DNA from: Anaerolineae bacterium
Lineage (GTDB): Bacteria; Chloroflexota; Anaerolineae; E26-bin7
Direction: 5' to 3'
Assembly: GCA_029933115.1 (NCBI GenBank)
Contig: JAOZOT010000001.1
Coordinates: forward strand, 1 to 40,117
Length of the DNA: 40,117 bases
Shown here: positions 2,501-40,117 of the stretch, in pieces
Numbering within the stretch: position 1 is the first letter of the stretch
Layout of the letters: each line of letters starts with the position of its first letter
Made by a program: the position numbers and the translations under genes
The notes under the pieces: model-generated
The model's input: only the letters and a program-made list of their open reading frames with translations
Databases searched by the model: none
What the model was told of the DNA's origin: nothing

Positions 2501-2579
2501 GCTCCCGCCCCCGCCGCCGGATAAAACCGGCTGGCCGTGGACGGAGGAGAGCCCACAGCTTCCGGATGCCATGCCCGAC
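2478..2579 (+). pseudogene. Stub of a GT2 gene start (copy B)
   Basis: It reads [34 protein letters not shown] with RBS 'ggaggtgacc' upstream. By hand alignment it is about four-fifths identical to 5332-5433. It breaks off into the GC-rich repeat at 2580. Confidence 0.75.
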
Positions 2580-2642
2580 CCTTCGACAAGCTCAGGACAG
2601 GCCCTTCGACCAGGCTCCCTTCGGCCTTGCTCAGGGCAGGTC
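2580..2642. repeat. GC-rich degenerate tandem mini-repeat (about 2.5 units)
   Basis: The units are 'cttcgacaagctcaggacaggcc', 'cttcgaccaggctc' and 'ccttcggccttgctcagggcaggtc'. A related single 24-nt unit sits at 2226-2249. Confidence 0.6.
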
Positions 2643-2647
2643 ACAAT

Positions 2648-15484: not shown

Positions 15485-15515
15485 TTGCGAATGCCGGGTC
15501 TATGTGCGAAGGCGG

Positions 15516-16910
15516 ATGATGGTTGCAAAAATATTCAAGCGAACTGAAAGAGGATTTGATTTGGCAGCAGGGACAGGGCTACGTACTATCCTGATTATTT
15601 TGGCTCTTGCGCTTTCACTCCAGAGTGGTCGCATGGCGACAACTGTAAGGGGGAGTATGCTCTTGGTGGTTTCAGTAGCTGTAGTAAGCATTGCACTTGT
15701 GATTCTCATGAAGCCGCGTTTGGTGTTGTGGCTGCTGCCAGCAGGTGTTACCATTCCACGCACGGCGCCGCGTCTGTTCGGGCGATTCGGACTCTTGGAG
15801 CTTGTTTTGGCTTTAGGGGCTATGGCTTTACTAATGCACTTGGTGATCCATCGCAAGCGGATATATACAGACTGGTTCTTCAAAGTGATGTTACTGGCCG
15901 CTCTGCCCATCGGGTCTTCGTGGCTTTTAGGCCGTGGTGAGGGGGATGGCGCGCTTCTATATATCTGGTTGGGTGCCTGTCTCGCCTATTTGTTGGCTAT
16001 CAACTTGGTCACCGGTAAACGGGAACCTTATCGTGTTTTGGATGTGGCCGCTATTATCGTCGTAGGGTTGTTGGTGGCCGATGTCTGGCTAAAAGGAACC
16101 CAAAAACCATGGGAGACAGATGTACCCTGGGTTGTATATCGTCAGGCTGGAACTACGGTAGGGATGGGTAACTTTGCAATGACTTTGATGGCTATGGTAT
16201 TGCCTGTGTTGTTGGCGTATGGCATAGTTGTGAAGAATCGAGTTGTCCGTTGGATGAACATCATTGTGTTCCTGGTCGGTACGACTGTAGCTATTTCGTT
16301 CCTGACACGCATTGTTATAATCAGCCTAATTGTGTCGGTCCTGGCCATGAGTTATATGCTCCGGCGGAGGAAAGGGGCAGAAGGGAGAAAGATCGCCCGC
16401 AGAACGGCATTGATGGCGGTTCTTCCTCTTGCCATCGTGCAGTTATGGGCTGGGGAGATTATTGATGCATTTGCCGATCGGTTTGCCCGAATCTACTATG
16501 CGGGAGATCCCAGATTTGAAATATGGCGTGGTCAATTTGAAATATTCGCAGCCTCTCCTTTGTGGGGATATGGTTCCATTAACACCTGGGAACGATTTGG
16601 TGTCCATGGCAGTCATGGCCTTTACTTGCGTGCGTTGTATGAATATGGGTTAGTCTTTATGATACCGCTTGCAGTACTGCTGGTCAAATGGTTTGCCAAC
16701 AGTTGGCGACTTGTTCAGCGCGATGGTCTGGATAATTGTCGTTTCGCTTTTGCACTGGCGAACTGGGGAGTTGTAACCGGTGTATTGATTACTACTATTC
16801 CTGTCCCTTATATCTATGCGCATGGAGCCTACGCTACGTTGGCTTTCTTTACAGCCGGATTGCTAGCAACTCAGCTACGTATGCTCGATGAACGGGTTGA
16901 CGAGTTATAG
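15516..16910 (+). CDS. Wzy_C-family membrane protein (O-antigen ligase/polymerase-like), copy 1
   Basis: There are many hydrophobic spans. 'GSHGLYLRALYEYGLVFMIPLAVLL' resembles the Wzy_C loop/helix motif. I placed the start at ATG 15516. The track ORF from 15321 overlaps asnB. Confidence 0.7.
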   Translation: MMVAKIFKRTERGFDLAAGTGLRTILIILALALSLQSGRMATTVRGSMLLVVSVAVVSIALVILMKPRLVLWLLPAGVTIPRTAPRLFGRFGLLELVLALGAMALLMHLVIHRKRIYTDWFFKVMLLAALPIGSSWLLGRGEGDGALLYIWLGACLAYLLAINLVTGKREPYRVLDVAAIIVVGLLVADVWLKGTQKPWETDVPWVVYRQAGTTVGMGNFAMTLMAMVLPVLLAYGIVVKNRVVRWMNIIVFLVGTTVAISFLTRIVIISLIVSVLAMSYMLRRRKGAEGRKIARRTALMAVLPLAIVQLWAGEIIDAFADRFARIYYAGDPRFEIWRGQFEIFAASPLWGYGSINTWERFGVHGSHGLYLRALYEYGLVFMIPLAVLLVKWFANSWRLVQRDGLDNCRFAFALANWGVVTGVLITTIPVPYIYAHGAYATLAFFTAGLLATQLRMLDERVDEL

Positions 16911-27086: not shown

Positions 27087-28492
27087 TCACTGTGGCTGAT
27101 CCCATACCCTCAGACTACATGCGCCCTATGCGCGTGATGCAGGTAGCCGACCAAGCCATTGCTCGTGGGCACGAGGTGACAATATGGACGACAAGCTTCT
27201 CACATCACCTTAAACGCCAACGAGTTCACCAAGATACAGAATATCAGGTTCAAACAAATTACCGAGTTGTGGTGCTCAAGTCATGGGGCTACAGAAAGAA
27301 CATTTCGTTGCAACGCTATCTGGCTCATTGGCACTTTGCCAAACGGCTTTCCCATGCTTTTGAGAATGCAAAAACGTACCCCGACATTGTGATCGCAACA
27401 TTGCCTCCTCTTGATACAGTATTGGCTGCAGTGACTTTTTGCCAGAAACAAGGCATTCCAGTGGTGGTTGACGTGATTGATCCTTGGCCTGATGGGATTC
27501 TATCACTAGCGCCTAAAGCACTACGCCCACTGGCCAAATTGCTCTTAGTACCACTTTATAGACAAGCCAAGCGCATATTCTCCAGCGTGTCAGCTATAAC
27601 CGGCATATCTCAGACCTATGTTGAGTGGGGACTACAACTCAGCGGCAGAAAAAATATCCCGACATGGGTATTCTGGCCCGCTGCTGATGTGAAGTTTTAT
27701 AACTCAGAAGATGATCAAGCATGCAGGGATAGGTTGGGAATACCACTCAAAAAAAATATCAGGCAGGGATCGAGGTCACCGGACGGCGCTGGAGGCGTTG
27801 AGAGGGGCAGGAGGCAGGGCTCTCAGTGGGATTCAGCGTTCTCAATGGCTCGGGAGGCAAGGTCGCCTACAGTTTTAAATGATACTCATGAGTTGGATGT
27901 GGTTCGTTTTGTGTATGCTGGAGCTTTGGGGCGATCATACGATGTGGAAACCGTAGTTAAAGCAGCCCGCCTGTTGAACAGTCAAGGGGAAAAACGAGCT
28001 CATTTCGAAATTGCTGGCACTGGTCCGAAAGCTGAGCTGATTCACAGCATGGCATCCGAATTACCCAATGTCTCGCTTTACGGGTGGTTAGATGCCAAGG
28101 CCTTGCTAGCGCTGCTAAAGCGCAGCCATGTCGGTTTGGCGCCTTACACGAAGGATTCCACTCAAACGGTCACCTATAAGCTATTTGAATATCTGGCAGC
28201 GGGATTGCCAATTTTGTGCTCATTGCCTGGTGAGATGACAGACTTTATCGTTAAGCACAGGGTAGGCAGGTTCTTTGAACCGGGAAACGCAGTGGCATTG
28301 GCGGATCTGGTGAGCGAGATCCTTGAAGATGTAAGTTGGCTGAAAGATGCAAGTCGCTTGGCCAGACAAGTGGCTTGTAAATACGGAGAGAAGTGCGTTG
28401 TGTATACTAAAATGGTGCAGGTATGGGAGACAATAGCGGAAGATAAAGTATGTTTGAAAGGGCATATCGCCACCAAGTCGAGCGCACTCTAG
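27071..28492 (+). CDS. Glycosyltransferase, GT4 (WbuB/WcaI-like) with an interdomain insertion
   Basis: '[13 protein letters not shown]' and '[30 protein letters not shown]'. A GC-rich in-frame stretch lies at 27761-27868. Confidence 0.8.
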
Positions 28493-28500
28493 TGACTATT

Positions 28501-29607
28501 ATGCAACGGGCGTCGGGCTGGGTCAGCCTGTACAAACAAACGGATGACGCCCGGCTGTGGCAGGCCGCGCAGGAGAACCGCGTCGCCTCCATCGTCGCCC
28601 ATGCCCTGATGGATACCCTCGGCCCTGAACACACCCCGGCCCACTGGCGTCGGGCTCACGCAGAGACTTATGACCGCATCTCTGCCTACCTGGCCGAACT
28701 GGACCGCGTCGCTGCCCGGCTGACAGAAGAAGGCATCTCTCTCGTCGCCCTCAAAAACGGCGGCATCGCCCGTGGCCTCTATCCCTGCCCTGGCTGCTGC
28801 CCCATGGGGGACCTGGACGTGCTGGTGGAAAAACGCCACTTTCGTCGTGCCCACCGAATTCTGCTGGCCGGAGGCTACCACTTTGAGTTCCGCAGTCCAC
28901 TGGAGGAGGCCGAGCTGGAAGCTGCCGAAAAAAGCGGTGGGGCCGAATATTGGAAAATCCTGCCCAATGGCGTGAGACTGTGGCTTGAACTGCAATGGCG
29001 GCCGGTGGCCGGACGCTGGATCCGCCCCGATCAGGAACCATCCGCCAAAGACCTGATAGCTCGCTCTGCCCCTATCGCCGGTACGGATGTGCGCCTCCTC
29101 GCTCCTGAGGACAACCTGTTGCAGGTCGCCCTCCACACGGCCAAACATTCCTACGTGCGCGCCCCTGGTTTTCGCCTACACCTGGACGTGGAGCGCATCG
29201 TTCGTCACCAGACTATCAACTGGGGTTTGTTTTTGAGTCGGGTGCTGGCTTTGCAGGTCAAGACGCCGGTCTACTTTTCCCTGGTCATCCCCCGGGCTCT
29301 CTTTGGCACGCCGGTGCCCGACGATGTGCTGGACGCCTTGCGTCCGCCGGCGTGGAAGGAGCGTGTGTTCACCCGCTGGATTCAGCGGGTGGGCCTTTTT
29401 AACCCCGACGAGCGCAAATTCGGCAAGGCGGGTTACATCCTCTTCACTGCTCTGCTCTACGACGACCTGCGCGGCCTGTGGCGGGGCGTCTTCCCCGACA
29501 AAGCCTGGATGCAAGAGCGGTACGGGTTCCGAAGTAGCCTGCTGCTGCCCATCTATCACGTTCGCCGGCTGGCAGACCTGACCTGGCGACGAACGCTTAG
29601 CTTATGA
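28501..29607 (+). CDS. Uncharacterised nucleotidyltransferase-family protein (NTP_transf_5-like)
   Basis: 'CPMGDLDVLVEKRHFRRAHRILLAGGY' and 'LLQVALHTAKH'. The start is ATG 28501 or GTG 28492. Confidence 0.6.
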   Translation: MQRASGWVSLYKQTDDARLWQAAQENRVASIVAHALMDTLGPEHTPAHWRRAHAETYDRISAYLAELDRVAARLTEEGISLVALKNGGIARGLYPCPGCCPMGDLDVLVEKRHFRRAHRILLAGGYHFEFRSPLEEAELEAAEKSGGAEYWKILPNGVRLWLELQWRPVAGRWIRPDQEPSAKDLIARSAPIAGTDVRLLAPEDNLLQVALHTAKHSYVRAPGFRLHLDVERIVRHQTINWGLFLSRVLALQVKTPVYFSLVIPRALFGTPVPDDVLDALRPPAWKERVFTRWIQRVGLFNPDERKFGKAGYILFTALLYDDLRGLWRGVFPDKAWMQERYGFRSSLLLPIYHVRRLADLTWRRTLSL

Positions 29608-29623: not shown

Positions 29624-30583
29624 ATGAGCTATGGGCTTAAAATACGAGCCTATCGCTTGGGTGATGAAATTCAAATTCTACGATTGTTCCGCCAAAGCTA
29701 TGGACGAGATTTGGATAGGAAGGTTTGGTTTTGGCGTTTTCAAGACAATCCTGCTGGTCAAGGCATCATCTACTTGGGTTGGGACAAAGACACTTTGGCA
29801 GCTCATTATGGAGTCTCAGCGGTTGTCATGCGGATCAGTGGCTGGGATTGGTTGACGGGCTTATCGGGAACTACTATGACGCATCCAGATTATCGTGGAC
29901 AGGGTCTTTTCCCTAAGCTGGCTAGGAAAACGTATGATCAAATGAGACAAGCTGGTATGGCAATGGTATGGGGTTTCCCTAACACCCAATCGCATCGAGG
30001 ATTTGTCCGGGACTTGGAATGGGTGGATATTTACGAGATTCCAACGCTTCGTTTGGCCTTGCCGGGTCATCGTCTATTGCCTGTCCCTCCTCCTACTAAT
30101 ATTTTGGAACTACAATGGTTTGACGGGCGATTTGACCAGTTATGGGAGCAAGTGAGGGATGACTATCGCATCATAGCAAAACGCGATCGTGACTACCTAC
30201 AATGGCGCTATGTCAAAAATCCAGTGACGGAGTACCATATCTTGGCCTATGTGGATGGTGACGATGTGATGGGATATGCCGTGTACAAACGATACCGTGA
30301 AGAACTCCAAATAGTGGATATCCTGACCAGACCGGACATAGAAATTGGCCTTACATTAATCTCTCGTCTAGTGCAAATTGGTCTTGAACAATCGCTTTCG
30401 TCCGTAGGTCTTTGGCTAAACGTGTCACATCCTCTGCACAGAGCGTTAGAGAGATTAGGGTTTTATAATGATAGGCCTGTTATTTACTTTGGAGGGCTGT
30501 CATTGCAGTCCCATTTGCAGGAAACCGAGATATATGATTTTCGCAATTGGTACTTGACGATGGGAGACTCTGATGTGTTTTAA
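29624..30583 (+). CDS. GNAT-like acyltransferase (two-domain), paralog of 11579
   Basis: 'TMTHPDYRGQGLFPKLARKTY'. The C-terminal tail is 'NWYLTMGDSDVF'. RBS 'gagggaaag' is upstream. Confidence 0.7.
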   Translation: MSYGLKIRAYRLGDEIQILRLFRQSYGRDLDRKVWFWRFQDNPAGQGIIYLGWDKDTLAAHYGVSAVVMRISGWDWLTGLSGTTMTHPDYRGQGLFPKLARKTYDQMRQAGMAMVWGFPNTQSHRGFVRDLEWVDIYEIPTLRLALPGHRLLPVPPPTNILELQWFDGRFDQLWEQVRDDYRIIAKRDRDYLQWRYVKNPVTEYHILAYVDGDDVMGYAVYKRYREELQIVDILTRPDIEIGLTLISRLVQIGLEQSLSSVGLWLNVSHPLHRALERLGFYNDRPVIYFGGLSLQSHLQETEIYDFRNWYLTMGDSDVF

Positions 30584-31241
30584 AATCAGCGAGAGCAAGC
30601 TCCTAGCCACATTGAAGACTGTGAAGGATATCGGGCGCCAATTTCAGCTGGCACTTAAGCGCTTGCTAGATATAGTTCTCTGCATCATTGTGCTTGTTTT
30701 AGGCTTTCCTTTTTTCGTGTTAATTGCTTTTCTGGTTAAATTTTCGTCTCCTGGTCCTATTTTTTTTATGCAGCAGCGAGTTGGTCGCGGAGGTAAGATT
30801 TTTGTAATGATTAAGTTTCGGACAATGGTTGCTGACCATCAGCTAAGTGTACCTCATGTATGGAATCTAACTGAAGAAGCAAGGATAACCTCAGTGGGTA
30901 GGTTCTTACGCGATTTTGGTCTTGATGAGCTGCCACAGGTGTTTAATATCCTCAAGGGAGACATGAGTATTGTTGGTCCACGGCCTCCTTTGCCTATGCA
31001 GGTAGATGATTACACGGAGCGTCAGGCACTTGCGTTTAACATGCGACCAGGAGTGCTTTCCTGGGCTGCGGTTAATGGTCGTCGCTCTATATCTATGGAG
31101 CAACGCCGAGACCTTCATGCTTGGTATGTACAGAACTGGTCTTTATGGCTTGATCTTAAAATACTGTTCCGCTCTTTTCTGGTTGTCCTTAAGAGAGAAA
31201 ATGCAGGTGAACGGCTGGAGACCATCATTACAAAGAATTGA
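30573..31241 (+). CDS. Small phosphoglycosyl transferase (bacterial sugar transferase family, PglC/WbaP-C-terminal-like)
   Basis: It has a re-entrant helix 'LKRLLDIVLCIIVLVLGFPFFVLIAFLV'. Other motifs are 'PGPIFFMQQRVGRGGKIFVMIKFRTM' and 'GLDELPQVFNILKGDMSIVGPRP'. Confidence 0.9.
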   Translation: MCFKISESKLLATLKTVKDIGRQFQLALKRLLDIVLCIIVLVLGFPFFVLIAFLVKFSSPGPIFFMQQRVGRGGKIFVMIKFRTMVADHQLSVPHVWNLTEEARITSVGRFLRDFGLDELPQVFNILKGDMSIVGPRPPLPMQVDDYTERQALAFNMRPGVLSWAAVNGRRSISMEQRRDLHAWYVQNWSLWLDLKILFRSFLVVLKRENAGERLETIITKN

Positions 31242-31926: not shown

Positions 31927-32196
<270 letters not shown>

Positions 32197-33119
32197 ACTG
32201 CTGCGGGCCTTTCGTCAGGCCTACCAGGCCCTGGGGCTGAGCGGCCGCATCGTGGCCGTGGACATAGACCCGCTGGCCCCCGCTTTGCAGGTCGCCGATC
32301 GCTACTACCTCGTCCCTCGCCTCACCTCACCCCATTACATCCCCACCCTGGTCGGCATCTGTCAGCGCGAACGCATCAACCTGGTTTTCCCTTTGATTGA
32401 CCCTGACATCCCCGTGCTGGCGCGCCATCGAGAGGATATTGAAGCGACGGGCGCCCGCCTGGCGGTGGTCTCGCCGGAGGCGGCCGCCACCGCCGCCGAC
32501 AAGTGGCTGACTGTTCAGTTCTTTCAACGCCTGGACTTGCCCACACCGCGTTCCTGGCTGCCGGGACAACTGGACCCGGCCCAGGTCAGGTATCCGCTTT
32601 TCATCAAACCGCGTTTCGGCAGCGCCGCCAGGAGCACGTTCAAAGTGCGCAACGCCCGAGAGTTGGCCTTCTTTTCGGATTACGTGCCGGATCCCATCGT
32701 GCAGGAATACCTGCCCGGCCCCGAAATCACCAATGACGTCATCTGTGACCTGGAAGGCGAGGTGCTGGCCGTGGTCTCCCGCCGGCGCATCGAAGTGCGT
32801 TGGGGCGAAGTGGCCAAAGGAGTGACGATTCACAACCCGTTCATAACCCGGGCCTGCGTGAAAATTGCCAGGGCGCTGCCGGCCATCGGCCCCATCACCG
32901 TGCAGTGCATGATGAAAGGGGTAACGCCGCATTTCACCGAGATCAATGCCCGGCTGGGTGGCGGGGTGCCACTGGGCATCGCCGCGGGCGTAGAATTTCC
33001 CCGCTGGCTGCTGGCACAAGCGGCCGGACGGCCCATGTATATCCCACCGCCGGACACCTACCTGGTTGGCCTGTACCTGACCCGCTACGATGATTCCTTC
33101 TTTCTGAGCGAAGCCGAAC

Positions 33120-33818
33120 GTGAGCAGGTGGCAAGCCATCGTCTTTGACCTGGACGATACCCTTTACCCGGAGCGAGATTACGTGCTCAGCGGCTTCCGG
33201 GCTGTGGCCGCCTGGGCCGAAGCACACCTGGACATCCCGGCTGCGCTGGGATTGGCCGAGCTACAAAGCCTCTTTGAGCAAGGCGTGCGTGGCGACACCT
33301 TTAACCGCTGGTTGGCGGCGCACGGCCTGGCCTCCGAGAGCCTGGTGCTGCGACTGGTCCAGGTCTATCGAGAGCACGAGCCGGCGCTGACCCCTTTTCC
33401 CGAGGTGCCGGGTTTGCTCGCCTCATTCCGTCGGCGCTATCGCCTGGGCATCGTCAGCGACGGCTACCTGGCCGTGCAGCAGCGCAAGCTGGCGGCCCTG
33501 AACCTGGCCCATCACTTTGAGGCCATCGTCTTTTCCGACGAGTGGGGGCGCAGAGCCTGGAAGCCCAGCGTCATACCGTTCCAGGCCGTCCTGCAGCGGC
33601 TGGCAGTGTCCGCCGCCGGTTCAGTCTACGTGGCGGACAATCCGGGCAAAGATTTCCTCGGTGCCCGGCAGGCCGGTATGTTCACCGTCTGGGTGCGACG
33701 GCCCGGCGGAGAATACGCCCGCTCGACTCCACCGACAGCACACCATGCCCCTCATTGGACTATCACCTCCCTGCTGGAATTGGAATCAACCATTGTGGGA
33801 CAGGAGACGCCTCGTTGA
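33120..33818 (+). CDS. HAD-superfamily hydrolase (subfamily IA-like)
   Basis: 'AIVFDLDDTLY' (DxDxT), 'GIVSDG' and 'VYVADNPGKDF'. The start is GTG, and no in-frame ATG lies before the DxD motif. Confidence 0.8.
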   Translation: MSRWQAIVFDLDDTLYPERDYVLSGFRAVAAWAEAHLDIPAALGLAELQSLFEQGVRGDTFNRWLAAHGLASESLVLRLVQVYREHEPALTPFPEVPGLLASFRRRYRLGIVSDGYLAVQQRKLAALNLAHHFEAIVFSDEWGRRAWKPSVIPFQAVLQRLAVSAAGSVYVADNPGKDFLGARQAGMFTVWVRRPGGEYARSTPPTAHHAPHWTITSLLELESTIVGQETPR

Positions 33819-33829
33819 CCCCCATCCCC

Positions 33830-34930
33830 ATGTCTGCGCCTGATCTGACCGAGGCCGAGATCGAAGCCGTCACTCAGGTCCTGGCTACTCCTCACCTCAG
33901 TATGGGCCCACGCCTGGACGAATTCGAGCGGCGGGTGGCCGGGTACATTGGTGTGTGCCACGCCGTGGCCGTCTCCAGTGGCACAGCCGGGCTGCACCTG
34001 TGTGTCATCGCCGCCGGGGTCAAGGAAGGGGACGAGGTCATCACCACGCCGTTCAGCTTTGTCTCGTCGGCCAATTGCGTCCTGTTTGAGCGGGCCAGGC
34101 CGGTGTTCGTGGACGTTGTGGCCGATACATTATGCCTTGATCCTGCTCGGATTGAAGAGGCCATTACGCCCCGGACCAAAGCTATCCTGGCGGTGGACGT
34201 CTTCGGCCAACCGGCGGATTACGACCCCATCCGCGAGATCGCCGAGCGGCACAACTTGGTGATCATCGAGGACGCCTGCGAGGCCATCGGGGCCGAGTAC
34301 AAAGGGCGTAAGGCAGGCACCCTGGGCAACGCCGCCGTTTTCGCCTTTTACCCCAACAAGCAGATGACTACCGGCGAGGGGGGCGTGATCGTCACCGACC
34401 GGGATGACTGGTCCGCTCTCTTCCGTTCGCTGCGCAACCAAGGGCGTGACGTTTTTGACGGCTGGCTTACCCACACCCGGCTGGGCTACAACTATCGCCT
34501 GGACGAGTTGAGCGCGGCGCTGGGTGTAGCACAGTTGGGCCGCATCGAGGAGTTGCTGGCCAAGCGCGAGCGGGTCGCAGATTGGTACAACGAGCGGCTG
34601 ATAAACATTGAAGGGGTGCGCATCCCGTACATCGCGCCAACGACCACGCGCATGAGCTGGTTCGTCTACGTCGTCCGTTTTCGGCCGCCTCTCAATCGGG
34701 ATTGGATATTGGCCGCCCTCAAGGCGCGGGGTATCCCTTCACGACCCTATTTCACACCGATCCACCTGCAACCGTTCTATGTCCAGAAGTTCGGCTATGA
34801 GCGAGGTGACTTTCCCCAGGCAGAAGCGGCGGGCGATTCGTGCCTGGCTCTGCCCTTCTCCGGCGTAATGACCGAGGAGCAGGTGGACCGTGTTTGCCGT
34901 GCTCTGAAGGAGATTGTTGCGGAAGGGTAG
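33830..34930 (+). CDS. DegT/DnrJ/EryC1/StrS-family sugar aminotransferase (PglE/PglC-Nm-like)
   Basis: 'AVSSGTAGLHLC', 'ITTPFSFVSSAN' and 'FAFYPNKQMTTGEGG' (PLP lysine). The start is ATG 33830 or TTG 33815. Confidence 0.9.
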   Translation: MSAPDLTEAEIEAVTQVLATPHLSMGPRLDEFERRVAGYIGVCHAVAVSSGTAGLHLCVIAAGVKEGDEVITTPFSFVSSANCVLFERARPVFVDVVADTLCLDPARIEEAITPRTKAILAVDVFGQPADYDPIREIAERHNLVIIEDACEAIGAEYKGRKAGTLGNAAVFAFYPNKQMTTGEGGVIVTDRDDWSALFRSLRNQGRDVFDGWLTHTRLGYNYRLDELSAALGVAQLGRIEELLAKRERVADWYNERLINIEGVRIPYIAPTTTRMSWFVYVVRFRPPLNRDWILAALKARGIPSRPYFTPIHLQPFYVQKFGYERGDFPQAEAAGDSCLALPFSGVMTEEQVDRVCRALKEIVAEG

Positions 34931-35089: not shown

Positions 35090-37117
35090 GTGAGAGTGCG
35101 TAACCGGCATTTCCTGATCCTCGACGTTCTGATCCTGAGCCTGCTACCGGCTCTGGCCCTCAGCCTGCGCCTGGACGGTTGGAGTTGGTGGCCACGCTAT
35201 GCTTCAGGGCTGGCGCTTTTCACTGCCCTGAGCCTGGTAATCAAGTTGGCTGCCATCTACAGTTTTGACCTCTACACCCGCTACTGGCCCTGTGCCACCA
35301 TGGACGACCTGGTCCAGATTGTGATCGCTGTGGCCGTGAGTACTGTGGTGACGGCAGCCTTGTGCACCATGACCCATCCCACTCTGGCTATCTACGGCGC
35401 AGCCCTGCCTCGCTCGGTCCCCCTCATTGATGGGCTGCTGACTTTGATTGCCGTGGGTGGGCTGCGGTCCAGTGCCCGGATCCTGGCTTGTCGAAACCAC
35501 CGGCGGATCGAGCAGGCCCTCGGCCAACGAGCTCGCCCTGAGCAGGGCCGGAGAGTGCTGGTGATGGGAGCCGGTGAAGCCGGGCGCTTGATTGTGCGCG
35601 AGATGTTCACCAACCCCCAACTGAGACTGGAGCCCGTAGGCTTTGTGGACGACGACCCAAACAAGCTGGGAACGCGCATCCACGGCCTGCCGGTGCTAGG
35701 GACCCGAGAGGACATCCCTGCCCTGGTGAGAGAGCACGGAGTCCAGCAGGTGATCATCGCCATGCCCAGAGCCCCGGGCACAGTGGTCCGCCGGGTGCGG
35801 GCCATCTGCGAAGGAGCCGGTGTGACGGCGCGGACTATCCCCGGCCTCTACGAGATCCTGTCAGGCCGGGTGAAGGTGAGCCAGATCCGCGATGTGACCA
35901 TTGAGGACTTGTTGCGGCGCGAGCCGGTAGTGATTGACCAGGCAGAGGTAGACGCCTATCTGCGCGAGACCACGGTCCTGGTGACGGGAGCTGGGGGCTC
36001 CATTGGCTCAGAGTTGTGCCGACAGATCGCCGCTCACAGTCCGCAACGGCTGATTCTCCTGGGGCATGGCGAGCATAGCATCTTTACCATCCAGATGGAG
36101 TTGCGCCAGGCCTTCCCCGCCCTGACCCTACACAGTGTCATCGCCGACGTGCGCGACGAGGCACGCCTCAACCGGGTCATGGACACCTACCGCCCCACGG
36201 TGGTGTTTCACGCTGCTGCCCACAAGCACGTGCCTCTCATGGAAGCCAACGTGGCAGAAGCCATCACCAACAATGTGCTGGGCACCAAAAGGTTGATCCA
36301 GGCGGCCGAACGCTGTGAGGTGCGCCGTTTTGTGCTCATCTCCACCGACAAAGCCGTCAACCCGGTGAGTGTCATGGGAGCCTGCAAGCGCATCGGCGAG
36401 ATGCTGGTGCAAGAAGCGGCCCGACGGAATGGCAGCATCTTTGTAGCCGTGCGCTTTGGCAACGTGTTGGGCAGCCGAGGCAGCGTGGTAGACGTATTTC
36501 GGCGCCAGATCACCGCCGGGGGGCCGTTGACGGTGACCCACCCCGAGATGCGCCGTTATTTCATGACCATCCCCGAGGCAGTCCAGTTGGTGTTACAGGC
36601 AGCGGCGCTGGGCCAGGGCGGTGAGATCTTTGTGTTGGACATGGGAGAGCCGGTGCGCATCGTGGACCTGGCCCGTGATTTGATCGAACTATCGGGGCTG
36701 ATACCGGGGTGTGAGGTCGGGATCACCTTCTGCGGAGCCCGGCCCGGCGAGAAGATGTGCGAGGAGCTATTCAGCCAGGAGGAGAACTGCACCCCCACCA
36801 GACATTCCAAGATTCTCGTGGTCAGGCGCGCCCCGGCCATTGCCGGGGAAAAGCTGCAACAGGCTATACGCGAGCTAGAGTGGCTGGTAGAAAGGGCAGG
36901 GGAGGACATCCTCCGGGCCAAGCTCCAAGAGATCGTGCCGGAATATCGGCCGATGGAGACGGTGAGAGAGGGCGCTCTCCAGGCTGGGCTCTCGGAGACT
37001 GTGCTCAGGTATCGGCCGGCGGGTCCTCGCGCTCTGTCAACTCTCCAGGCACTGCCTCGGCACCTGTCCTCACCTCGTCTTCACGACCGGCTACCGTCAC
37101 TTGGTGCTGAACGGTGA
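35090..37117 (+). CDS. Membrane-anchored CapD/PglF/WbpM-type nucleotide-sugar 4,6-dehydratase
   Basis: The N-terminus has hydrophobic helices. 'VLVTGAGGSIGSELCRQI' and 'FVLISTDKAVNPVSVMGACKRIGE' follow. A GTG start (35090 or 35096) lies behind 'ggagagagaa'. Confidence 0.9.
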   Translation: MRVRNRHFLILDVLILSLLPALALSLRLDGWSWWPRYASGLALFTALSLVIKLAAIYSFDLYTRYWPCATMDDLVQIVIAVAVSTVVTAALCTMTHPTLAIYGAALPRSVPLIDGLLTLIAVGGLRSSARILACRNHRRIEQALGQRARPEQGRRVLVMGAGEAGRLIVREMFTNPQLRLEPVGFVDDDPNKLGTRIHGLPVLGTREDIPALVREHGVQQVIIAMPRAPGTVVRRVRAICEGAGVTARTIPGLYEILSGRVKVSQIRDVTIEDLLRREPVVIDQAEVDAYLRETTVLVTGAGGSIGSELCRQIAAHSPQRLILLGHGEHSIFTIQMELRQAFPALTLHSVIADVRDEARLNRVMDTYRPTVVFHAAAHKHVPLMEANVAEAITNNVLGTKRLIQAAERCEVRRFVLISTDKAVNPVSVMGACKRIGEMLVQEAARRNGSIFVAVRFGNVLGSRGSVVDVFRRQITAGGPLTVTHPEMRRYFMTIPEAVQLVLQAAALGQGGEIFVLDMGEPVRIVDLARDLIELSGLIPGCEVGITFCGARPGEKMCEELFSQEENCTPTRHSKILVVRRAPAIAGEKLQQAIRELEWLVERAGEDILRAKLQEIVPEYRPMETVREGALQAGLSETVLRYRPAGPRALSTLQALPRHLSSPRLHDRLPSLGAER

Positions 37118-37150
37118 GGCGTAACGACGAGAAATAAAGGTAAAGTCGGG

Positions 37151-38467
37151 TTGAAAAGATTAGCCACCCGGATCACCCGGGTAGAGTTGTGGCTTCTGCT
37201 GCTCATCACACCATTGCTACTCTTCCCGAATCCCCTCACCCCTCTGGGGCTGGTCTTGTCCCTGACGCCCTGGCTAGGCCGCTGGGAGGTGAGAGGTCAC
37301 CTCACGGCGCGCACGCCGGCCGACTGGCCCATCGTGGTGATGATGCTGATGAGCATCGTCGGCCTGTATCCTTCTGTCAACCTTTCCCTGAGTCTGGTCA
37401 CATTGTGCCAGCTTGTGGCCGGGGTGGGGCTCTTCTACGGGGTGGTCAACTGGACCTGGTCTACCTGCCCCGAGTTCCACCGAAGAAGCCAAAGGCTATG
37501 GCCGGTTGCGTTTCTGCTGGTAGCTTTGGGCCTGGCTCTGGCCCTGGTTGCCCCACTGGGTATCAACTGGAGTCATACAAAACTTTTCTCCAGCCCAATC
37601 TACGACCACGTACCGTCCTTGTTGCAGCGTTATGAGACCATCAATGCCAACGTGCTGGCCGGAGCCCTGGCTTTGCTTGTCCCTGTCAGTATGGCTTTGC
37701 TCTTGTTCGCTCCTTTCTCCTTTTTATCCAGAGGGCAGGCCTGGTTGGCCCGGGCCGGCCTGTTCGCGGCCACGCTGGCTATGCTGGCCGTCGTCTTCCT
37801 GACTCAATCGCGGGGGGTCTACCTGGCCCTGGCTCTCGGCTTGTTGATCATGGTCCTGCTGTGCCGTTCAGAACTCTTGTGGGGCACGCCTCTCTTGCTC
37901 GTGGGAGCCGGAGTAGCCATCCGTCGTTTTGGTCTGTATCCTCTTCTAGAGGCCATATTGGTAACAGATTCTCTCAGTGGGTTGGAGACAAGGCGGCAAA
38001 TCTGGTCTGCGGCCCTGGCTATGATCGGCTATTTCCCTCTGACCGGCATCGGCCTGGGGACTTTTAACCAGACCCTGTCCGGCATGTATCCGTTTTCCGT
38101 CCAATATAGCCCCCAAACGAGCGTAAACCACGCCCACAATCTATTCTTGCAAGTGGGTATAGACCTGGGCGTGCCTGGGCTGTGCGCTTTTGCGACTCTG
38201 GTGGTCCTCAGTCTGCGGGCTGCCTGGCAGGTGTGGCGCTCCCGCACGGTGACAGGCCGGAAAGATACCGGCGCCCTGGGCCTGGGCCTTTTTACCAGCC
38301 TCATCGTCATGGCGTTGCACGGGGCGGTAGATGCCGTCACTTGGGGCACAAAGCCCTCGGTCATCCCCTGGCTGGTGATGGGCTTGAGTATGGCCGCTTG
38401 TAACCTGACAAAAGTGGACGTTCTCGACGCGGAGATTTCAATTGGTCACACCAAGACAAAACCCTGA
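37151..38467 (+). CDS. Wzy_C-family membrane protein (O-antigen ligase / polymerase / O-oligosaccharyltransferase family), copy 2
   Basis: The protein is polytopic. 'SVNHAHNLFLQVGIDLGVPGLCAF' is the Wzy_C motif. It starts at TTG; the next in-frame ATG would remove the first helices. Confidence 0.7.
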   Translation: MKRLATRITRVELWLLLLITPLLLFPNPLTPLGLVLSLTPWLGRWEVRGHLTARTPADWPIVVMMLMSIVGLYPSVNLSLSLVTLCQLVAGVGLFYGVVNWTWSTCPEFHRRSQRLWPVAFLLVALGLALALVAPLGINWSHTKLFSSPIYDHVPSLLQRYETINANVLAGALALLVPVSMALLLFAPFSFLSRGQAWLARAGLFAATLAMLAVVFLTQSRGVYLALALGLLIMVLLCRSELLWGTPLLLVGAGVAIRRFGLYPLLEAILVTDSLSGLETRRQIWSAALAMIGYFPLTGIGLGTFNQTLSGMYPFSVQYSPQTSVNHAHNLFLQVGIDLGVPGLCAFATLVVLSLRAAWQVWRSRTVTGRKDTGALGLGLFTSLIVMALHGAVDAVTWGTKPSVIPWLVMGLSMAACNLTKVDVLDAEISIGHTKTKP

Positions 38468-40117
38468 AGGTCAGACGGGCTCATCACGGCCGCCCGTCGA
38501 AGGGTTCTGCCCTCACCTGGGCCTGGAAGAAGATAAGGCTTCACACTTTTCGTATTCCGAGAGCGCCCATCGCTGCTTCGCTGCCGGGTCGCCTGAAACC
38601 GTCGAATTGGAGCACCAGGAGAAATTCTGCCTGGGAGGGGAGTATCGGTTCTGTACACGTTTCGTCGAGACTCCTGCCCCGGTGAGACGGCCCGATAAGG
38701 CGAAGGCGATGCCCGCTGAAGAGGCCGGTGATTACCGATACGGCCGTCGAGGGCTCTCCAGGGGATTCGTTGTTCCGCTGCGGGTCACCCTGTGGGCCCT
38801 GACCGGGGTGCTGACCGTTTTGGCCCTCTTGTATCTGGGTTTCTCCCTCGTCAATGCGCCTTCGGCCCCTGGCGACGCCGAGGGCTTCGGTCACACCGAA
38901 GGGCCTGCCCTGAGCGCGGCCGCAGAAGCTTCACCGCCAGAGCCGGGAGCCATTGCCGGGGCACTCACCCCTACGCCGTTGCAGTTCGACCGCCCCACGC
39001 CGATCCCTACCCCACCGCCAGGCGGTAACATATTTATCCTGACGCCGGCCGCCAGGGCGGTGGGTTGGGTAGCCAGCCCCGGGCCAGGCGAAGAGGAAAA
39101 CAACCACTTTGGTGACTCTTACCTGCACGCCGGGGTATACGGAGGGTTGGTGTATCATGGAGCCATACAATTCGATCTATCGTCGGTCATCACCCCCGGC
39201 ACCCCCATCTACTTTGCCGCTCTCCAGGTGACCGGCCTGAGCCGAGAGCGCCTGGGCACCGGCGGCCGTTGGGAACTGCAATTGCTCGGCCTGGAAATGG
39301 ACCCCGACTGGTCTTCCCACACTTTCCAGGACGTCCACAACGCCAGAATTGATGAGACTATTCCCCCGGCTTTGGAGAACGGCGACCTGGACAAAAACAA
39401 GACCAACGTTTTCACTTTCAGCGCCGGGCAGTTGATTGTCCTGGAAAAACGGGTGTACGACAGTGGCCTGGTCTCCTTCCGCCTGGATGGCCCTTCTTCG
39501 GGTGAGAATAACCTTTTCACCTGGGATAGCGGCTATGGCCCCGGCAGCCTGGGCCATAAGCCACTGCTGATCATCGGCGTAGGCCCCCCACCATTGACGC
39601 CGGTACCGACGCGCACTCCTTTCCTGGTGGTAATCACCAGCACGCCCACGCCGTCGAATGCGTTGGTGGCCGCAGCCCAGGCGGCCACTGCGGTCTTCCG
39701 GGCTACCGCGACCGGCACGCCGACCCCCTTGCCTACCAATTGGGTCACGCCCATCGTGGTCACCAGCACGCCCACGCCGGAGAACGAAGCCACGGCCACC
39801 TACATCGCAGCCCGGGCTACCGTTGAAGCCTTCACCACCGGTACGGCCACCCCCACGCCGCCGCATCAGTTCACGGCTACGCCCACGCCCACCTGGGTCG
39901 TGGTGACCAGCACGCCTACGCCGGAGAATGTACTCACGGCCGTGGCCATGCTAGCCCCGCTCAACGCCCGGACCACGGGCAACATACAGCTCGCTGCTAC
40001 GCCCCTCCCATCCAACTGGGTCACGCCCATCGTGGTCACCAGCACGCCCACGCCGGAGAACAAAGCCACGGCCACCTACATCGCAGCCCGGGCTACCGTC
40101 GAGGCCTTCACCACCGG
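38442..40117 (+). CDS. Partial CDS (3' end beyond the window): Cys/His-rich N-terminus, one TM helix, unknown ectodomain, Thr/Pro-rich tandem repeats
   Basis: I checked codon by codon and this frame has no stop from 38409 to 40117. It is not in the ORF track because it has no stop. The proposed TTG 38442 lies 7 nt after GGAG; ATG 38709 is the alternative start. The N-terminus reads 'CPHLGLEEDKASHFSYSESAHRCF..HQEKFCLGGEYRFCTRF'. The TM helix is 'LRVTLWALTGVLTVLALLYLGFSLV'. Confidence 0.65.
   Translation, partial: MVTPRQNPEGQTGSSRPPVEGFCPHLGLEEDKASHFSYSESAHRCFAAGSPETVELEHQEKFCLGGEYRFCTRFVETPAPVRRPDKAKAMPAEEAGDYRYGRRGLSRGFVVPLRVTLWALTGVLTVLALLYLGFSLVNAPSAPGDAEGFGHTEGPALSAAAEASPPEPGAIAGALTPTPLQFDRPTPIPTPPPGGNIFILTPAARAVGWVASPGPGEEENNHFGDSYLHAGVYGGLVYHGAIQFDLSSVITPGTPIYFAALQVTGLSRERLGTGGRWELQLLGLEMDPDWSSHTFQDVHNARIDETIPPALENGDLDKNKTNVFTFSAGQLIVLEKRVYDSGLVSFRLDGPSSGENNLFTWDSGYGPGSLGHKPLLIIGVGPPPLTPVPTRTPFLVVITSTPTPSNALVAAAQAATAVFRATATGTPTPLPTNWVTPIVVTSTPTPENEATATYIAARATVEAFTTGTATPTPPHQFTATPTPTWVVVTSTPTPENVLTAVAMLAPLNARTTGNIQLAATPLPSNWVTPIVVTSTPTPENKATATYIAARATVEAFTT
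39615..40117 (+). repeat. In-frame tandem coding repeats (42-48 codon units, at least 4 copies)
   Basis: The core 'accagcacgcc(c/t)acgccg' (TSTPTP) recurs at 39636, 39762, 39906 and 40038. The 106-nt stretches 39736-39841 and 40012-40117 differ at 4 positions. Confidence 0.85.

What the first reader, a model, noticed from the sequence alone, without database searches (positions are those of the whole stretch)
38442..39614. Long ORF missing from the ORF track, with a four-Cys/His N-terminal module and an unknown ectodomain
The frame is open from 38409 to the window end, with no stop over more than 560 codons. The track shows only antisense ORFs here. Upstream of ATG 38709 the frame encodes 'GFCPHLGLEEDKASHFSYSESAHRCFAAGSPETVELEHQEKFCLGGEYRFCTRF'. 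This gives C-P-H...H-x-C...C...C spacing that looks like a small metal-binding domain. I recall similar 'CP(H/Y)LGL..D' N-termini on otherwise unrelated membrane proteins, but I have not verified this. That argues for the TTG 38442 start (GGAG 7 nt upstream). The predicted topology is a cytoplasmic Cys/His module, one TM helix (LRVTLWALTGVLTVLALLYLGFSLV) and a ~200-aa ectodomain (GNIFILTP...LLIIGVG) with no motif I recognise. That resembles an anti-sigma-like or signalling layout with no partner in view.
Basis: partly seen in the sequence, partly recalled or inferred. Interest (0 to 1): 0.65.

Follow-up and report, generated by a model that had tools for sequence, protein, structure and literature searches.

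The report
Chloroflexota polysaccharide-cluster membrane protein, new Cys4 module
The open frame is a real gene cut off by the window end: a single-pass membrane protein found in Chloroflexota polysaccharide-synthesis clusters, with a sugar-binding-like outer domain and a widespread, unannotated four-cysteine module on its cytoplasmic N-terminus.

Summary
The frame is open from 38409 to 40117, and TTG 38442 is the only canonical start that includes the Cys/His segment. That segment is conserved and under purifying selection (dN/dS 0.08-0.20 against two orthologues), whereas the Met of ATG 38709 is not conserved.

The ORF is the 5' two-thirds of a gene of about 790-890 aa. Full-length orthologues contain, in order:
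- a Cys4 module
- one TM helix (N-in)
- a Pro/Thr linker
- a ~190-aa beta-sandwich (AF2 pLDDT 96) whose best PDB matches are chondroitin-sulfate- and alginate-binding CBMs
- ~45-aa Thr/Pro-rich repeats
- a TolB-like beta-propeller

All 29 genome loci found are Chloroflexota. In 27-28 of 37 loci the gene lies beside a same-strand Wzz/tyrosine-kinase gene, usually with Wzy_C, a phosphoglycosyl transferase or glycosyltransferases nearby. No sigma factor is present, so the anti-sigma reading is not supported.

The N-terminal module (C-P-x-L-G-x3-D...H-x-C...Q-x3-C-L...C-x2-[YF]) is a large unannotated family: 3,337 clusters, with no Pfam, NCBIfam or PDB match. It sits mostly at the N-terminus of single-pass proteins, and 39 of the 83 longer ones scanned carry LysM.

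The proposed function, a glycan-binding accessory of Wzx/Wzy-type assembly with a cytoplasmic metal-binding module, is inferred and not shown.

The parts
37151..38467 (+). Upstream gene, Wzy_C family (O-antigen ligase/polymerase-like). Its last 26 nt overlap the start of the finding's gene.
   Evidence: Pfam PF04932 Wzy_C, E 5e-20. The same Wzy_C-then-gene order occurs in orthologue loci L007, L008 and L009.
38431..38434 (+). GGAG ribosome-binding-site-like motif, 7 nt upstream of TTG.
   Evidence: Read directly from the sequence. Orthologue L009 has GGAGG 4 nt upstream of its ATG.
38442..38444 (+). Most likely start codon (TTG). It is the only canonical start between the stop at 38406-38408 and the conserved module.
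   Evidence: The module downstream of it is conserved and under purifying selection.
38508..38663 (+). Cytoplasmic Cys4 module, residues 23-74. Conserved positions are C23-P-x-L-G-x3-D31, H43-x-C45, H58-Q59-x3-C63-L, and C71-x2-F74.
   Evidence: Invariant C/C/Q/C/C, with P, G, D and L at >=93% and H at 87%, in 172 instances. HMM search found 3,337 clusters at E<=1e-3. AF2 pLDDT 86.7. No Pfam, NCBIfam or PDB match. dN/dS 0.08-0.20.
38709..38711 (+). Internal ATG (codon 90). This is the rival start and is rejected.
   Evidence: The Met is not conserved in orthologues L007 and L009, and the upstream codons are conserved.
38778..38852 (+). Single transmembrane helix LRVTLWALTGVLTVLALLYLGFSLV (residues 113-137), N-terminus inside.
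   Evidence: Hydrophobic segment with 4 K/R in the 20 residues before it and 0 after it. Conserved in homologues.
38853..39020 (+). Pro/Thr/Ala-rich extracytoplasmic linker.
   Evidence: Translation. The alignment shows a variable PT-rich stretch.
39021..39596 (+). Conserved ~190-aa beta-sandwich ectodomain, CBM-like. Motifs include GWV, NHFGDS, YHGAxQFD, FRLDGP and LFTWDSGYG.
   Evidence: AF2 pLDDT 96, pTM 0.91. Foldseek best PDB matches are 8wab (chondroitin-sulfate-binding CBM, E 7e-7, TM 0.60) and 7vbo (alginate-binding CBM96, E 1e-4). 89 homologues.
39597..40117 (+). At least four ~42-48-aa Thr/Pro-rich repeats (VVTSTPTPEN..TA.A...A..TGT.TP.P.N.VT). The ORF and the window end inside this array.
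   Evidence: Direct repeats D1 (4 copies) and D2 (39723-39841 vs 39999-40117, 92%). The repeat is conserved across the family. Orthologues continue into a TolB-like beta-propeller.

Best explanation
Window 38442-40117 holds the first ~558 codons of a gene of about 790-890 codons. It encodes a type II (N-in) single-pass membrane protein that is a lineage-specific accessory component of Wzx/Wzy-type polysaccharide gene clusters in Chloroflexota (Anaerolineae, Caldilineae, Ardenticatenia).

Shown:
- Translation starts at TTG 38442.
- The N-terminal 52-residue four-cysteine module is conserved and selected.
- One TM helix follows.
- The ectodomain is a CBM96/CBM100-like beta-sandwich.
- Orthologues continue with Thr/Pro-rich repeats and a TolB-like beta-propeller.
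- The gene lies between or next to Wzy_C and a fused Wzz/tyrosine-kinase (PCP) gene.

Inferred:
- On the outer face, the beta-sandwich, probably together with the propeller, binds the polysaccharide made by the cluster. It would guide, retain or anchor that polymer at the cell surface, working alongside the co-polymerase/kinase. This is analogous to the carbohydrate-binding domains of the membrane-anchored BcsB subunit in cellulose secretion.
- The cytoplasmic module binds a metal through its four invariant cysteines, most likely structural Zn. It would serve as a docking or regulatory domain for a cytoplasmic partner.
- The same module performs this cytoplasmic role for many other single-pass proteins whose ectodomains bind cell-envelope glycans (LysM, SH3b).
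For: Gene and start:
- (74% orthologue P0101, which starts MPTPSKRLCPHLGL).
- (L009 orthologue, 889 aa).
- (module dN/dS 0.196, 0.076 and 0.181; Met90 not conserved).

Ectodomain fold:
- (pLDDT 96).
- (8wab E 7e-7, TMq 0.60; 7vbo E 1e-4; BcsB 7l2z also listed).
- 7vbo is the founding CBM96 alginate-binding module, related to the DNRLRE domain (PMC9971899).

C-terminal propeller in orthologues:
- (TolB, E 4e-18).

Context:
- The window is one long + strand glycan cluster with several GT2/GT4 genes, PseB/PseC-like genes, Bac_transf and Wzy_C.
- Homologue neighbourhoods contain Wzy_C, Bac_transf, glycosyltransferases and Wzz+CbiA/ParA/AAA_31.
- 27-28 of 37 loci have a same-strand Wzz/BY-kinase gene within 600 nt. 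The closest relative, L009, has the order Wzy_C, then the gene, then the BY-kinase.
- All 29 genome loci are Chloroflexota.

Module:
-.
- N-terminal position in 126 of 144 proteins, with a TM segment after it in 104 of 144.
- LysM in 39 of 83, plus PD40, SH3 and Germane.
Against: - No experiment or characterised homologue exists. Every database name seen is 'hypothetical', 'PD40 domain-containing' or 'TolB family'.
- Similarity to CBMs is structural only (TM 0.53-0.60, 13-14% identity). The DNRLRE/CBM96 sequence model is not hit. TGF-beta prodomains and viral capsid jelly-rolls also appear in the list, so glycan binding is not proven.
- 13 of 37 family members lack the module, so it is dispensable for the core role.
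- The module has no CxxC knuckles and no structural neighbour, so the metal and its identity are unverified.
- Neighbourhoods of three module proteins with other architectures (LysM, two-copy, no-Pfam) share no common partner.
- The downstream gene of this particular locus lies beyond the window.
Confidence: 0.55

Rival explanations
1. Anti-sigma-like or one-component transmembrane signalling protein. The cytoplasmic Cys/His module would sequester or release a transcription factor in response to ligand binding by the ectodomain.
For: The layout (cytoplasmic Cys-rich domain, one TM, sensor-like ectodomain) resembles ZAS anti-sigma factors. The module recurs on many single-pass proteins with ligand-binding ectodomains.
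Against: - There is no H-x3-C-x2-C motif and no zf-HC2 or other anti-sigma Pfam hit at E<=1.
- No sigma-70 family domain hit appears among the window ORFs scanned, in eight homologue neighbourhoods or in three neighbourhoods of other module proteins.
- The conserved neighbour is a Wzz/BY-kinase.
- 13 of 37 family members lack the module altogether.
Confidence: 0.08
2. The Cys4 module is a redox- or cofactor-sensing domain (Fe-S cluster, or heme bound through the invariant Cys-Pro plus His) rather than a structural Zn site. It would couple the cytoplasmic redox, iron or heme state to envelope-glycan handling.
For: - Four isolated, widely spaced invariant Cys without CxxC pairs are more typical of Fe-S sites than of zinc ribbons.
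- The Cys-Pro dipeptide (P 99%) followed by a hydrophobic residue matches the heme-regulatory-motif pattern. This rests on my own knowledge of HRMs. The only literature hit for the motif strings was a heme-binding peptide probe paper, PMC6350759.
- His is 87% conserved and Gln is invariant.
Against: - In the 5-copy proteins the His is replaced by Asn while the Cys are kept. That argues against His as an essential ligand.
- No Fe-S or heme family match was found.
- There is no experimental evidence.
Confidence: 0.2
3. The protein is a structural surface or sheath anchor, or a cell-wall-binding protein that merely shares an operon with the polysaccharide genes. It would not take part in polymer assembly or export.
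For: TolB-like propellers, SH3b (the L009 C-terminus; SH3_3 in P0064) and PT-rich repeats are typical of envelope-associated scaffold proteins. The module's other hosts are mostly LysM peptidoglycan binders.
Against: The tight, same-strand adjacency to the Wzz/BY-kinase in 27-28 of 37 loci, often with gaps under 100 nt or overlaps, suggests co-function with the assembly machinery.
Confidence: 0.15
4. Translation starts at ATG 38709, and the upstream 267 nt are untranslated or a chance open frame.
For: ATG is a stronger initiator than TTG. The TTG start overlaps the upstream gene by 26 nt.
Against: - The upstream codons are 64-70% identical to orthologues, with third-position-biased substitutions and dN/dS 0.08-0.20.
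- The family-wide invariant residues lie there.
- Met90 is not conserved.
- Orthologues start 8-9 codons before the first Cys.
Confidence: 0.02

Closest known systems
CBM96 (alginate-binding module of Dp0100, PDB 7vbo; DNRLRE-domain relatives) and the chondroitin-sulfate-binding CBM of a chondroitinase (PDB 8wab)
   Same: The ~190-aa beta-sandwich fold. These are the top Foldseek matches to the ectodomain model (E 7e-7 and 1e-4, TM 0.53-0.60). Both are non-catalytic binders of acidic polysaccharides (PMC9971899).
   Different: Identity is only 13-14%, and the NCBIfam DNRLRE model NF033679 is not hit at E<=1. Here the domain is attached to a membrane anchor and a propeller in a biosynthetic cluster, not to a lyase. 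Binding is untested.
TolB / PD40 beta-propeller proteins
   Same: The C-terminal domain of full-length orthologues matches TolB propellers (PDB 4r40, E 4e-18; TIGR02800, E 7e-20; PD40).
   Different: - Scores are far below the TolB equivalog cut-off (71 vs 343 bits).
- There is no TolB N-terminal domain and no Tol-Pal context.
- The protein is membrane-anchored rather than a soluble periplasmic protein.
- The propeller lies beyond the end of the window.
BcsB, the membrane-anchored periplasmic subunit of bacterial cellulose synthase
   Same: A single-TM-anchored extracytoplasmic protein with carbohydrate-binding beta-sandwich domains, encoded in a polysaccharide secretion operon. 7l2z_E appears among the fold matches (E 2.8e-3, TMq 0.46).
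   Different: The pathway is different (synthase-dependent vs Wzx/Wzy-type). BcsB's anchor is C-terminal, it has no Cys module and no propeller, and the structural similarity is weak.
ZAS-type anti-sigma factors (zf-HC2, e.g. RsrA, RslA, ChrR)
   Same: An N-terminal cytoplasmic Cys/His-containing domain, followed in the membrane-bound members by one TM helix and an extracytoplasmic domain.
   Different: There is no H-x3-C-x2-C motif, no Pfam hit, no adjacent sigma-factor gene, and a different predicted fold (two short strands plus one helix).
Zinc-ribbon / rubredoxin-type 'C-P-x-C-G' knuckles
   Same: The invariant C-P-x-L-G turn resembles a metal-binding knuckle with its second Cys replaced by Leu (my inference from the motif). 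Four Cys are available as ligands.
   Different: There are no paired CxxC knuckles. The ligands are spread over 49 residues, and Foldseek found no zinc-ribbon or any other PDB neighbour.

Membership tests
ZAS anti-sigma factor (Pfam zf-HC2, PF13490) | H-x3-C-x2-C zinc-binding motif in the N-terminal anti-sigma domain, detectable by the Pfam model | tested here: not met
   The motif is absent from residues 1-90. There are no Pfam hits at E<=1 for the whole product.
ZAS anti-sigma factor (Pfam zf-HC2, PF13490) | Co-located or co-transcribed ECF sigma-factor gene | tested here: not met
   No sigma-70 family domain hit among the window ORFs scanned or in the called genes around eight homologues. 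The window does end inside the gene, so its immediate downstream gene is unseen. In the closest relative, L009, that gene is a Wzz/BY-kinase.
CBM96 / DNRLRE domain (NCBIfam NF033679) | Match to the family sequence model | tested here: not met
   NCBIfam scans of the whole product and of the isolated ectodomain at E<=1 returned no DNRLRE hit. A profile search of PDB sequences did not return 7vbo or 8wab.
CBM96 / DNRLRE domain (NCBIfam NF033679) | Beta-sandwich fold superimposable on 7vbo | tested here: met
   Foldseek: 7vbo E 1.1e-4, TMq 0.53; the related 8wab E 6.9e-7, TMq 0.60. The query model has pLDDT 96.
CBM96 / DNRLRE domain (NCBIfam NF033679) | Binding of a polysaccharide, Ca2+-assisted in 7vbo | not testable with these tools
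   This needs binding assays.
Component of a Wzx/Wzy-dependent polysaccharide locus | Encoded within a cluster containing an initiating phosphoglycosyl transferase, glycosyltransferases, a Wzy-family protein and a PCP/BY-kinase | tested here: met
   Window: Bac_transf 30573-31241, several GT2/GT4 genes, and Wzy_C 37151-38467. Homologue loci: Wzz/BY-kinase adjacent in 27-28 of 37, with Wzy_C or PGT frequent. The PCP gene of this locus itself is beyond the window.
TolB-like PD40 beta-propeller protein | PD40 repeats forming a beta-propeller | tested here: inconclusive
   Present in the full-length orthologues P0101 and L009 and in most homologues. The corresponding part of this gene lies beyond window position 40117.
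Zinc ribbon / treble-clef zinc fingers | Two CxxC (or CxxH) knuckles and a recognisable fold | tested here: not met
   The module contains no CxxC. The Foldseek PDB search gave no match below E 7.
Heme regulatory motif (Cys-Pro) | Cys-Pro dipeptide followed by a hydrophobic residue, and heme binding | tested here: inconclusive
   C-P-[YFH]-L is present with P at 99%. Heme binding is not testable here. Four invariant Cys point to a different kind of site.

The most novel reading that the evidence does not exclude
The C-P-x-L-G...H-x-C...Q-x3-C...C module is a new class of cytoplasmic cofactor-binding (Fe-S, heme or redox-active Zn) sensor domain with a fold not represented in the PDB. In thousands of single-pass proteins it would transmit the cytoplasmic redox or metal state 'inside-out' to extracytoplasmic glycan-binding domains (LysM, SH3b, CBM-like/propeller). 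In Chloroflexota it would thereby gate Wzx/Wzy-type polysaccharide assembly through the adjacent Wzz/tyrosine kinase. The fusion of five module copies to a receiver-MinD/ParA-type ATPase (P0091-P0093) hints that the partner is a MinD/ParA/BY-kinase-type P-loop domain.
Probability: 0.12. Interest if true: 0.75.

Novelty: new variant of a known kind. Interest (0 to 1): 0.45.

Why it matters
Two unannotated domain families are delimited here, each with a testable hypothesis.

- **A compact four-cysteine cytoplasmic module.** It is present in more than 3,300 protein clusters, has no Pfam, NCBIfam or PDB counterpart, and is almost always attached to single-pass proteins with envelope-glycan-binding ectodomains. 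Defining its cofactor and partner would annotate thousands of 'hypothetical' proteins. It might also reveal a new way of coupling the cytoplasm to the cell surface.
- **A CBM-like ectodomain plus TolB-like propeller protein.** It is a conserved neighbour of the co-polymerase/tyrosine kinase in Chloroflexota. The envelope architecture and polysaccharide export route of this phylum are poorly understood, to my knowledge, and this protein is a candidate lineage-specific component of that route.

For annotation, the practical result is simple: call the gene from TTG 38442 and flag it as truncated by the contig end.

Tried and rejected
- **Word-indexed homologue searches with the short module alignments** (A2; A4) returned one hit and no hits. 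This is a limit of the 5-mer index, not evidence of rarity. The index-free HMM search found 3,337 clusters.
A six-sequence alignment (A6) worked.
- **Searches for a known relative of the module** found nothing:
  - PDB sequences: best E 0.98, a WWP1 HECT domain, which I take as a chance match.
  - Foldseek PDB: best E 7.4.
  - Pfam and NCBIfam at E<=1.
  - Literature search for the motif strings: one unrelated heme-probe paper.
  - Literature searches for LysM/zinc/Chloroflexi and for Anaerolineae EPS: nothing relevant.
- **tblastn of a LysM-type module protein against plasmids** matched only the LysM part. The taxonomic range of the module outside Chloroflexota could not be established.
- **Cluster look-up for names** found only 'hypothetical protein'.
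- **Neighbourhoods of module proteins with other architectures** (P0114, P0096, P0094, P0092) showed no shared partner, so synteny gave no clue to the module's function.
- **Tandem Repeats Finder** found nothing in 38400-40117. The protein-level repeats were found with the repeat finder.
- **The promoter/terminator scan of 37000-39000** showed nothing above shuffles, which is consistent with co-transcription with Wzy_C.


Full report
**1. The observation**

The + strand frame that follows TGA 38406-38408 is open for 569 codons to the window end. The only ATG/GTG/TTG between that stop and the Cys/His segment is TTG 38442, preceded by GGAG at 38431-38434 with a 7-nt spacer. ATG 38709 is in frame at codon 90.

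The quoted peptide, the hydrophobic helix LRVTLWALTGVLTVLALLYLGFSLV (residues 113-137) and the GNIFILTP...LLIIGVG domain are all present. The ORF lister omits ORFs that run off an end of the source (tool description).

**2. It is a real gene and the upstream segment is translated**

A search with residues 1-391 found 89 homologues, the best at E 9.5e-130. A 788-aa protein, P0101, is 74% identical over the whole available length and begins MPTPSKRLCPHLGL.

A second full-length orthologue comes from an Anaerolineae MAG (L009, 889 aa). It is 83% identical in the ectodomain and starts at an ATG with a GGAGG 4 nt upstream, 9 codons before the first Cys.

Codon alignments of the three orthologues gave these values:
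- The 54-codon module has dN/dS of 0.196, 0.076 and 0.181, with substitutions concentrated at third positions.
- The ectodomain has a comparable dN/dS of about 0.15.
- The Met encoded by ATG 38709 is not conserved in either orthologue.

It overlaps the upstream gene by 26 nt. No promoter- or terminator-like site stands out, which is consistent with co-transcription.

**3. Anatomy**

- **Topology.** Residues 23-74 are the Cys/His module. The TM helix has 4 K/R in the 20 residues before it and none in the 20 after it, so the N-terminus is cytoplasmic. A Pro/Thr linker follows.
- **Ectodomain.** Residues ~194-385 form a domain that AlphaFold2, given a 68-sequence alignment, models at pLDDT 96 and pTM 0.91 as a beta-sandwich. 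Its best PDB matches are a chondroitin-sulfate-binding CBM (8wab, E 7e-7, TMq 0.60) and the alginate-binding CBM96 founder (7vbo, E 1e-4, TMq 0.53). TGF-beta-family prodomains, BcsB and viral jelly-rolls score lower.
- **Relation to CBM96.** CBM96 is related to the NCBI DNRLRE domain (PMC9971899). That model is not hit at E<=1, and identity to the CBMs is only 13-14%. The resemblance is one of fold, not family membership.
- **Repeats.** From residue ~386 the protein consists of repeats of 42-48 aa (VVTSTPTPEN..TA.A...TGT.TP.P.N.VT). Two DNA copies are 92% identical, and the window ends inside this array.
- **C-terminus in orthologues.** Orthologues continue into a TolB-like PD40 beta-propeller. 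L009 carries an extra C-terminal stretch that looks SH3-like by eye; it was not scanned against Pfam.

**4. Context**

The window is essentially one + strand polysaccharide-biosynthesis cluster. It contains:
- a sulfotransferase, several GT2 and GT4 glycosyltransferases, methyltransferases, a deacetylase and GNATs
- an Asn-synthase-like gene, a carbamoyltransferase, an epimerase/dehydratase and an ATP-grasp gene
- PseC- and PseB-like genes
- a Bac_transf initiating transferase
- Wzy_C, immediately upstream of the finding

No sigma-factor domain hit appears among the ORFs scanned.

Around eight homologues, the called genes are again Wzy_C, Bac_transf, glycosyltransferases and, strikingly, a fused Wzz + CbiA/ParA/AAA_31 protein, that is, a polysaccharide co-polymerase/BY-kinase.

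A genome scan returned 29 loci, all Chloroflexota: Anaerolineae, Caldilineae and Ardenticatenia. Across all 37 loci:
- 27 have a same-strand Wzz/BY-kinase homologue within 600 nt. The count is 28 if L019 is included, because the script mis-scored its overlapping downstream kinase.
- Several of the remaining contigs end at the gene.
- 24 of the 37 carry the N-terminal module.
- In L009 the order is Wzy_C, then the gene, then the BY-kinase.

For this locus, the kinase gene is predicted to lie just beyond the window.

**5. The N-terminal module**

An HMM built from ten instances was searched without a word index against 1.84 billion representative proteins. It found 3,337 proteins at E<=1e-3 and 1,012 at E<=1e-10.

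In 172 instances:
- the four Cys and one Gln are invariant
- Pro is conserved at 99%, Gly at 99%, Asp at 95% and Leu at 93%
- His is conserved at 87%, and is replaced by Asn in the multi-copy proteins
- a terminal aromatic residue is conserved at 96%

The pattern is C-P-x-L-G-x3-D-x11-[HN]-x-C-x13-[HYF]-Q-x3-C-[LF]-x6-C-x2-[YF].

Position and architecture:
- The module starts within the first 60 residues in 126 of 144 proteins. A TM-like segment follows it in 104 of 144, at a median of 37 residues.
- Of 83 module proteins of at least 200 aa, 39 carry LysM. Others carry PD40, SH3 or Germane domains.
- Three proteins combine a receiver domain, a MinD/ParA-type ATPase and five module copies.

The module has no Pfam, NCBIfam or PDB sequence match. 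Its AF2 model (pLDDT 86.7; two short strands and a helix) has no PDB fold neighbour. No database name other than 'hypothetical protein' was found, and no paper mentions the motif in this sense.

Metal binding is an inference from the four invariant Cys in a cytoplasmic domain. The C-P-x-L-G turn resembles a degenerate rubredoxin or zinc-ribbon knuckle (my inference). Fe-S or heme (Cys-Pro) ligation cannot be excluded.

**6. Mechanism**

Most likely (about 0.55): the protein is a lineage-specific accessory of Wzx/Wzy-type polysaccharide assembly. Its CBM-like sandwich and propeller would bind, guide or retain the polymer on the outer face, beside the co-polymerase/kinase. The cytoplasmic Cys4 module would be a metal-stabilised docking or regulatory domain.

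Shown: gene, start, conservation, fold class, synteny and module distribution. Inferred: glycan binding, metal binding and the partner.

Rivals:
- a redox or cofactor-sensing module (0.2)
- a purely structural envelope anchor (0.15)
- an anti-sigma-like signal transducer (0.08)
- an ATG 38709 start (0.02)

**7. Novelty and verdict**

The individual folds on the outside are of known kinds. However, the protein family, its conserved place in Chloroflexota polysaccharide loci and, above all, the Cys4 module are undescribed in the libraries and literature I could search.

I rate it a new variant of a known kind (an unannotated domain family within a known pathway type). It is of moderate interest: a solid lead for domain annotation and for Chloroflexota envelope biology, but not a surprising new system on present evidence.

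Noticed in passing
window 39597-40117 (copies at 39723-39841 and 39999-40117): The ORF ends in an array of ~42-48-aa Thr/Pro-rich repeats that is conserved across the family. Two DNA copies are 92% identical, and the window stops inside the second. Such near-identical repeats could be why the assembly breaks here. The repeat unit (PTPEN..TA.A...TGT.TP) matches no Pfam family.
   Followed up: partly
window 1-38467: Almost the whole window is one + strand glycan-biosynthesis cluster of more than 30 genes. GC content is strongly patchy (0.44-0.65 per kb), which suggests a mosaic or horizontally assembled locus.
   Followed up: partly
window 2648-4273 (- strand) and 2537-4120 (+ strand): This is the only long minus-strand gene. 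It encodes an AAA_16/ATPase_2 NTPase with a MarR/ArsR-type HTH (STAND-like regulator). It is almost fully overlapped by a 527-aa + strand ORF with no Pfam hit, which is probably spurious.
   Followed up: no
window 15321-16910 (+): A 529-aa ORF in the middle of the cluster has no Pfam hit at E<=1e-5. No Wzx-type flippase was identified anywhere in the window, so this ORF could be a divergent membrane component.
   Followed up: no
window 28450-29607; locus L005 9822-13710: An NTP_transf_5 ('uncharacterised nucleotidyltransferase') gene sits in the window's cluster. In L005 the same family lies directly after the homologue of the finding and is followed by PqqD and two radical-SAM/SPASM genes, a RiPP-like set inside a polysaccharide locus.
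   Followed up: no
proteins P0091, P0092, P0093 (L041 2151-5288): Three proteins of 1,045-1,298 aa combine a response-regulator receiver, a MinD/ParA-type ATPase and five tandem copies of the Cys4 module. In these copies the conserved His is Asn and the 'HQ' is Y/F-Q. A TM-like segment near the C-terminus was predicted in P0092 and P0093. This is a possible Rosetta-stone hint that the module works with MinD/ParA/BY-kinase-type P-loop domains.
   Followed up: partly
L009 7485-10154: The closest genomic orthologue has Leu instead of the 99%-conserved Pro in the first motif (CLHLGL). It also carries an extra C-terminal stretch that looks SH3-like by eye, absent from P0101.
   Followed up: no
L007 9026-9926 and L008 5634-6534: In the P0101 orthologue loci, a DUF3368 / UPF0175 pair (toxin-antitoxin-like) is inserted between Wzy_C and the orthologue. 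In the window those two genes overlap directly.
   Followed up: no
window 32135-34930: Three adjacent genes encode a PylC-like ATP-grasp ligase, a HAD hydrolase and a PseC-like aminotransferase. This suggests an amino-sugar decorated with an amino acid or similar acyl group. The ORFs at 33120-33818 and 33542-34930 overlap by ~275 nt, so one start is probably mis-set.
   Followed up: no
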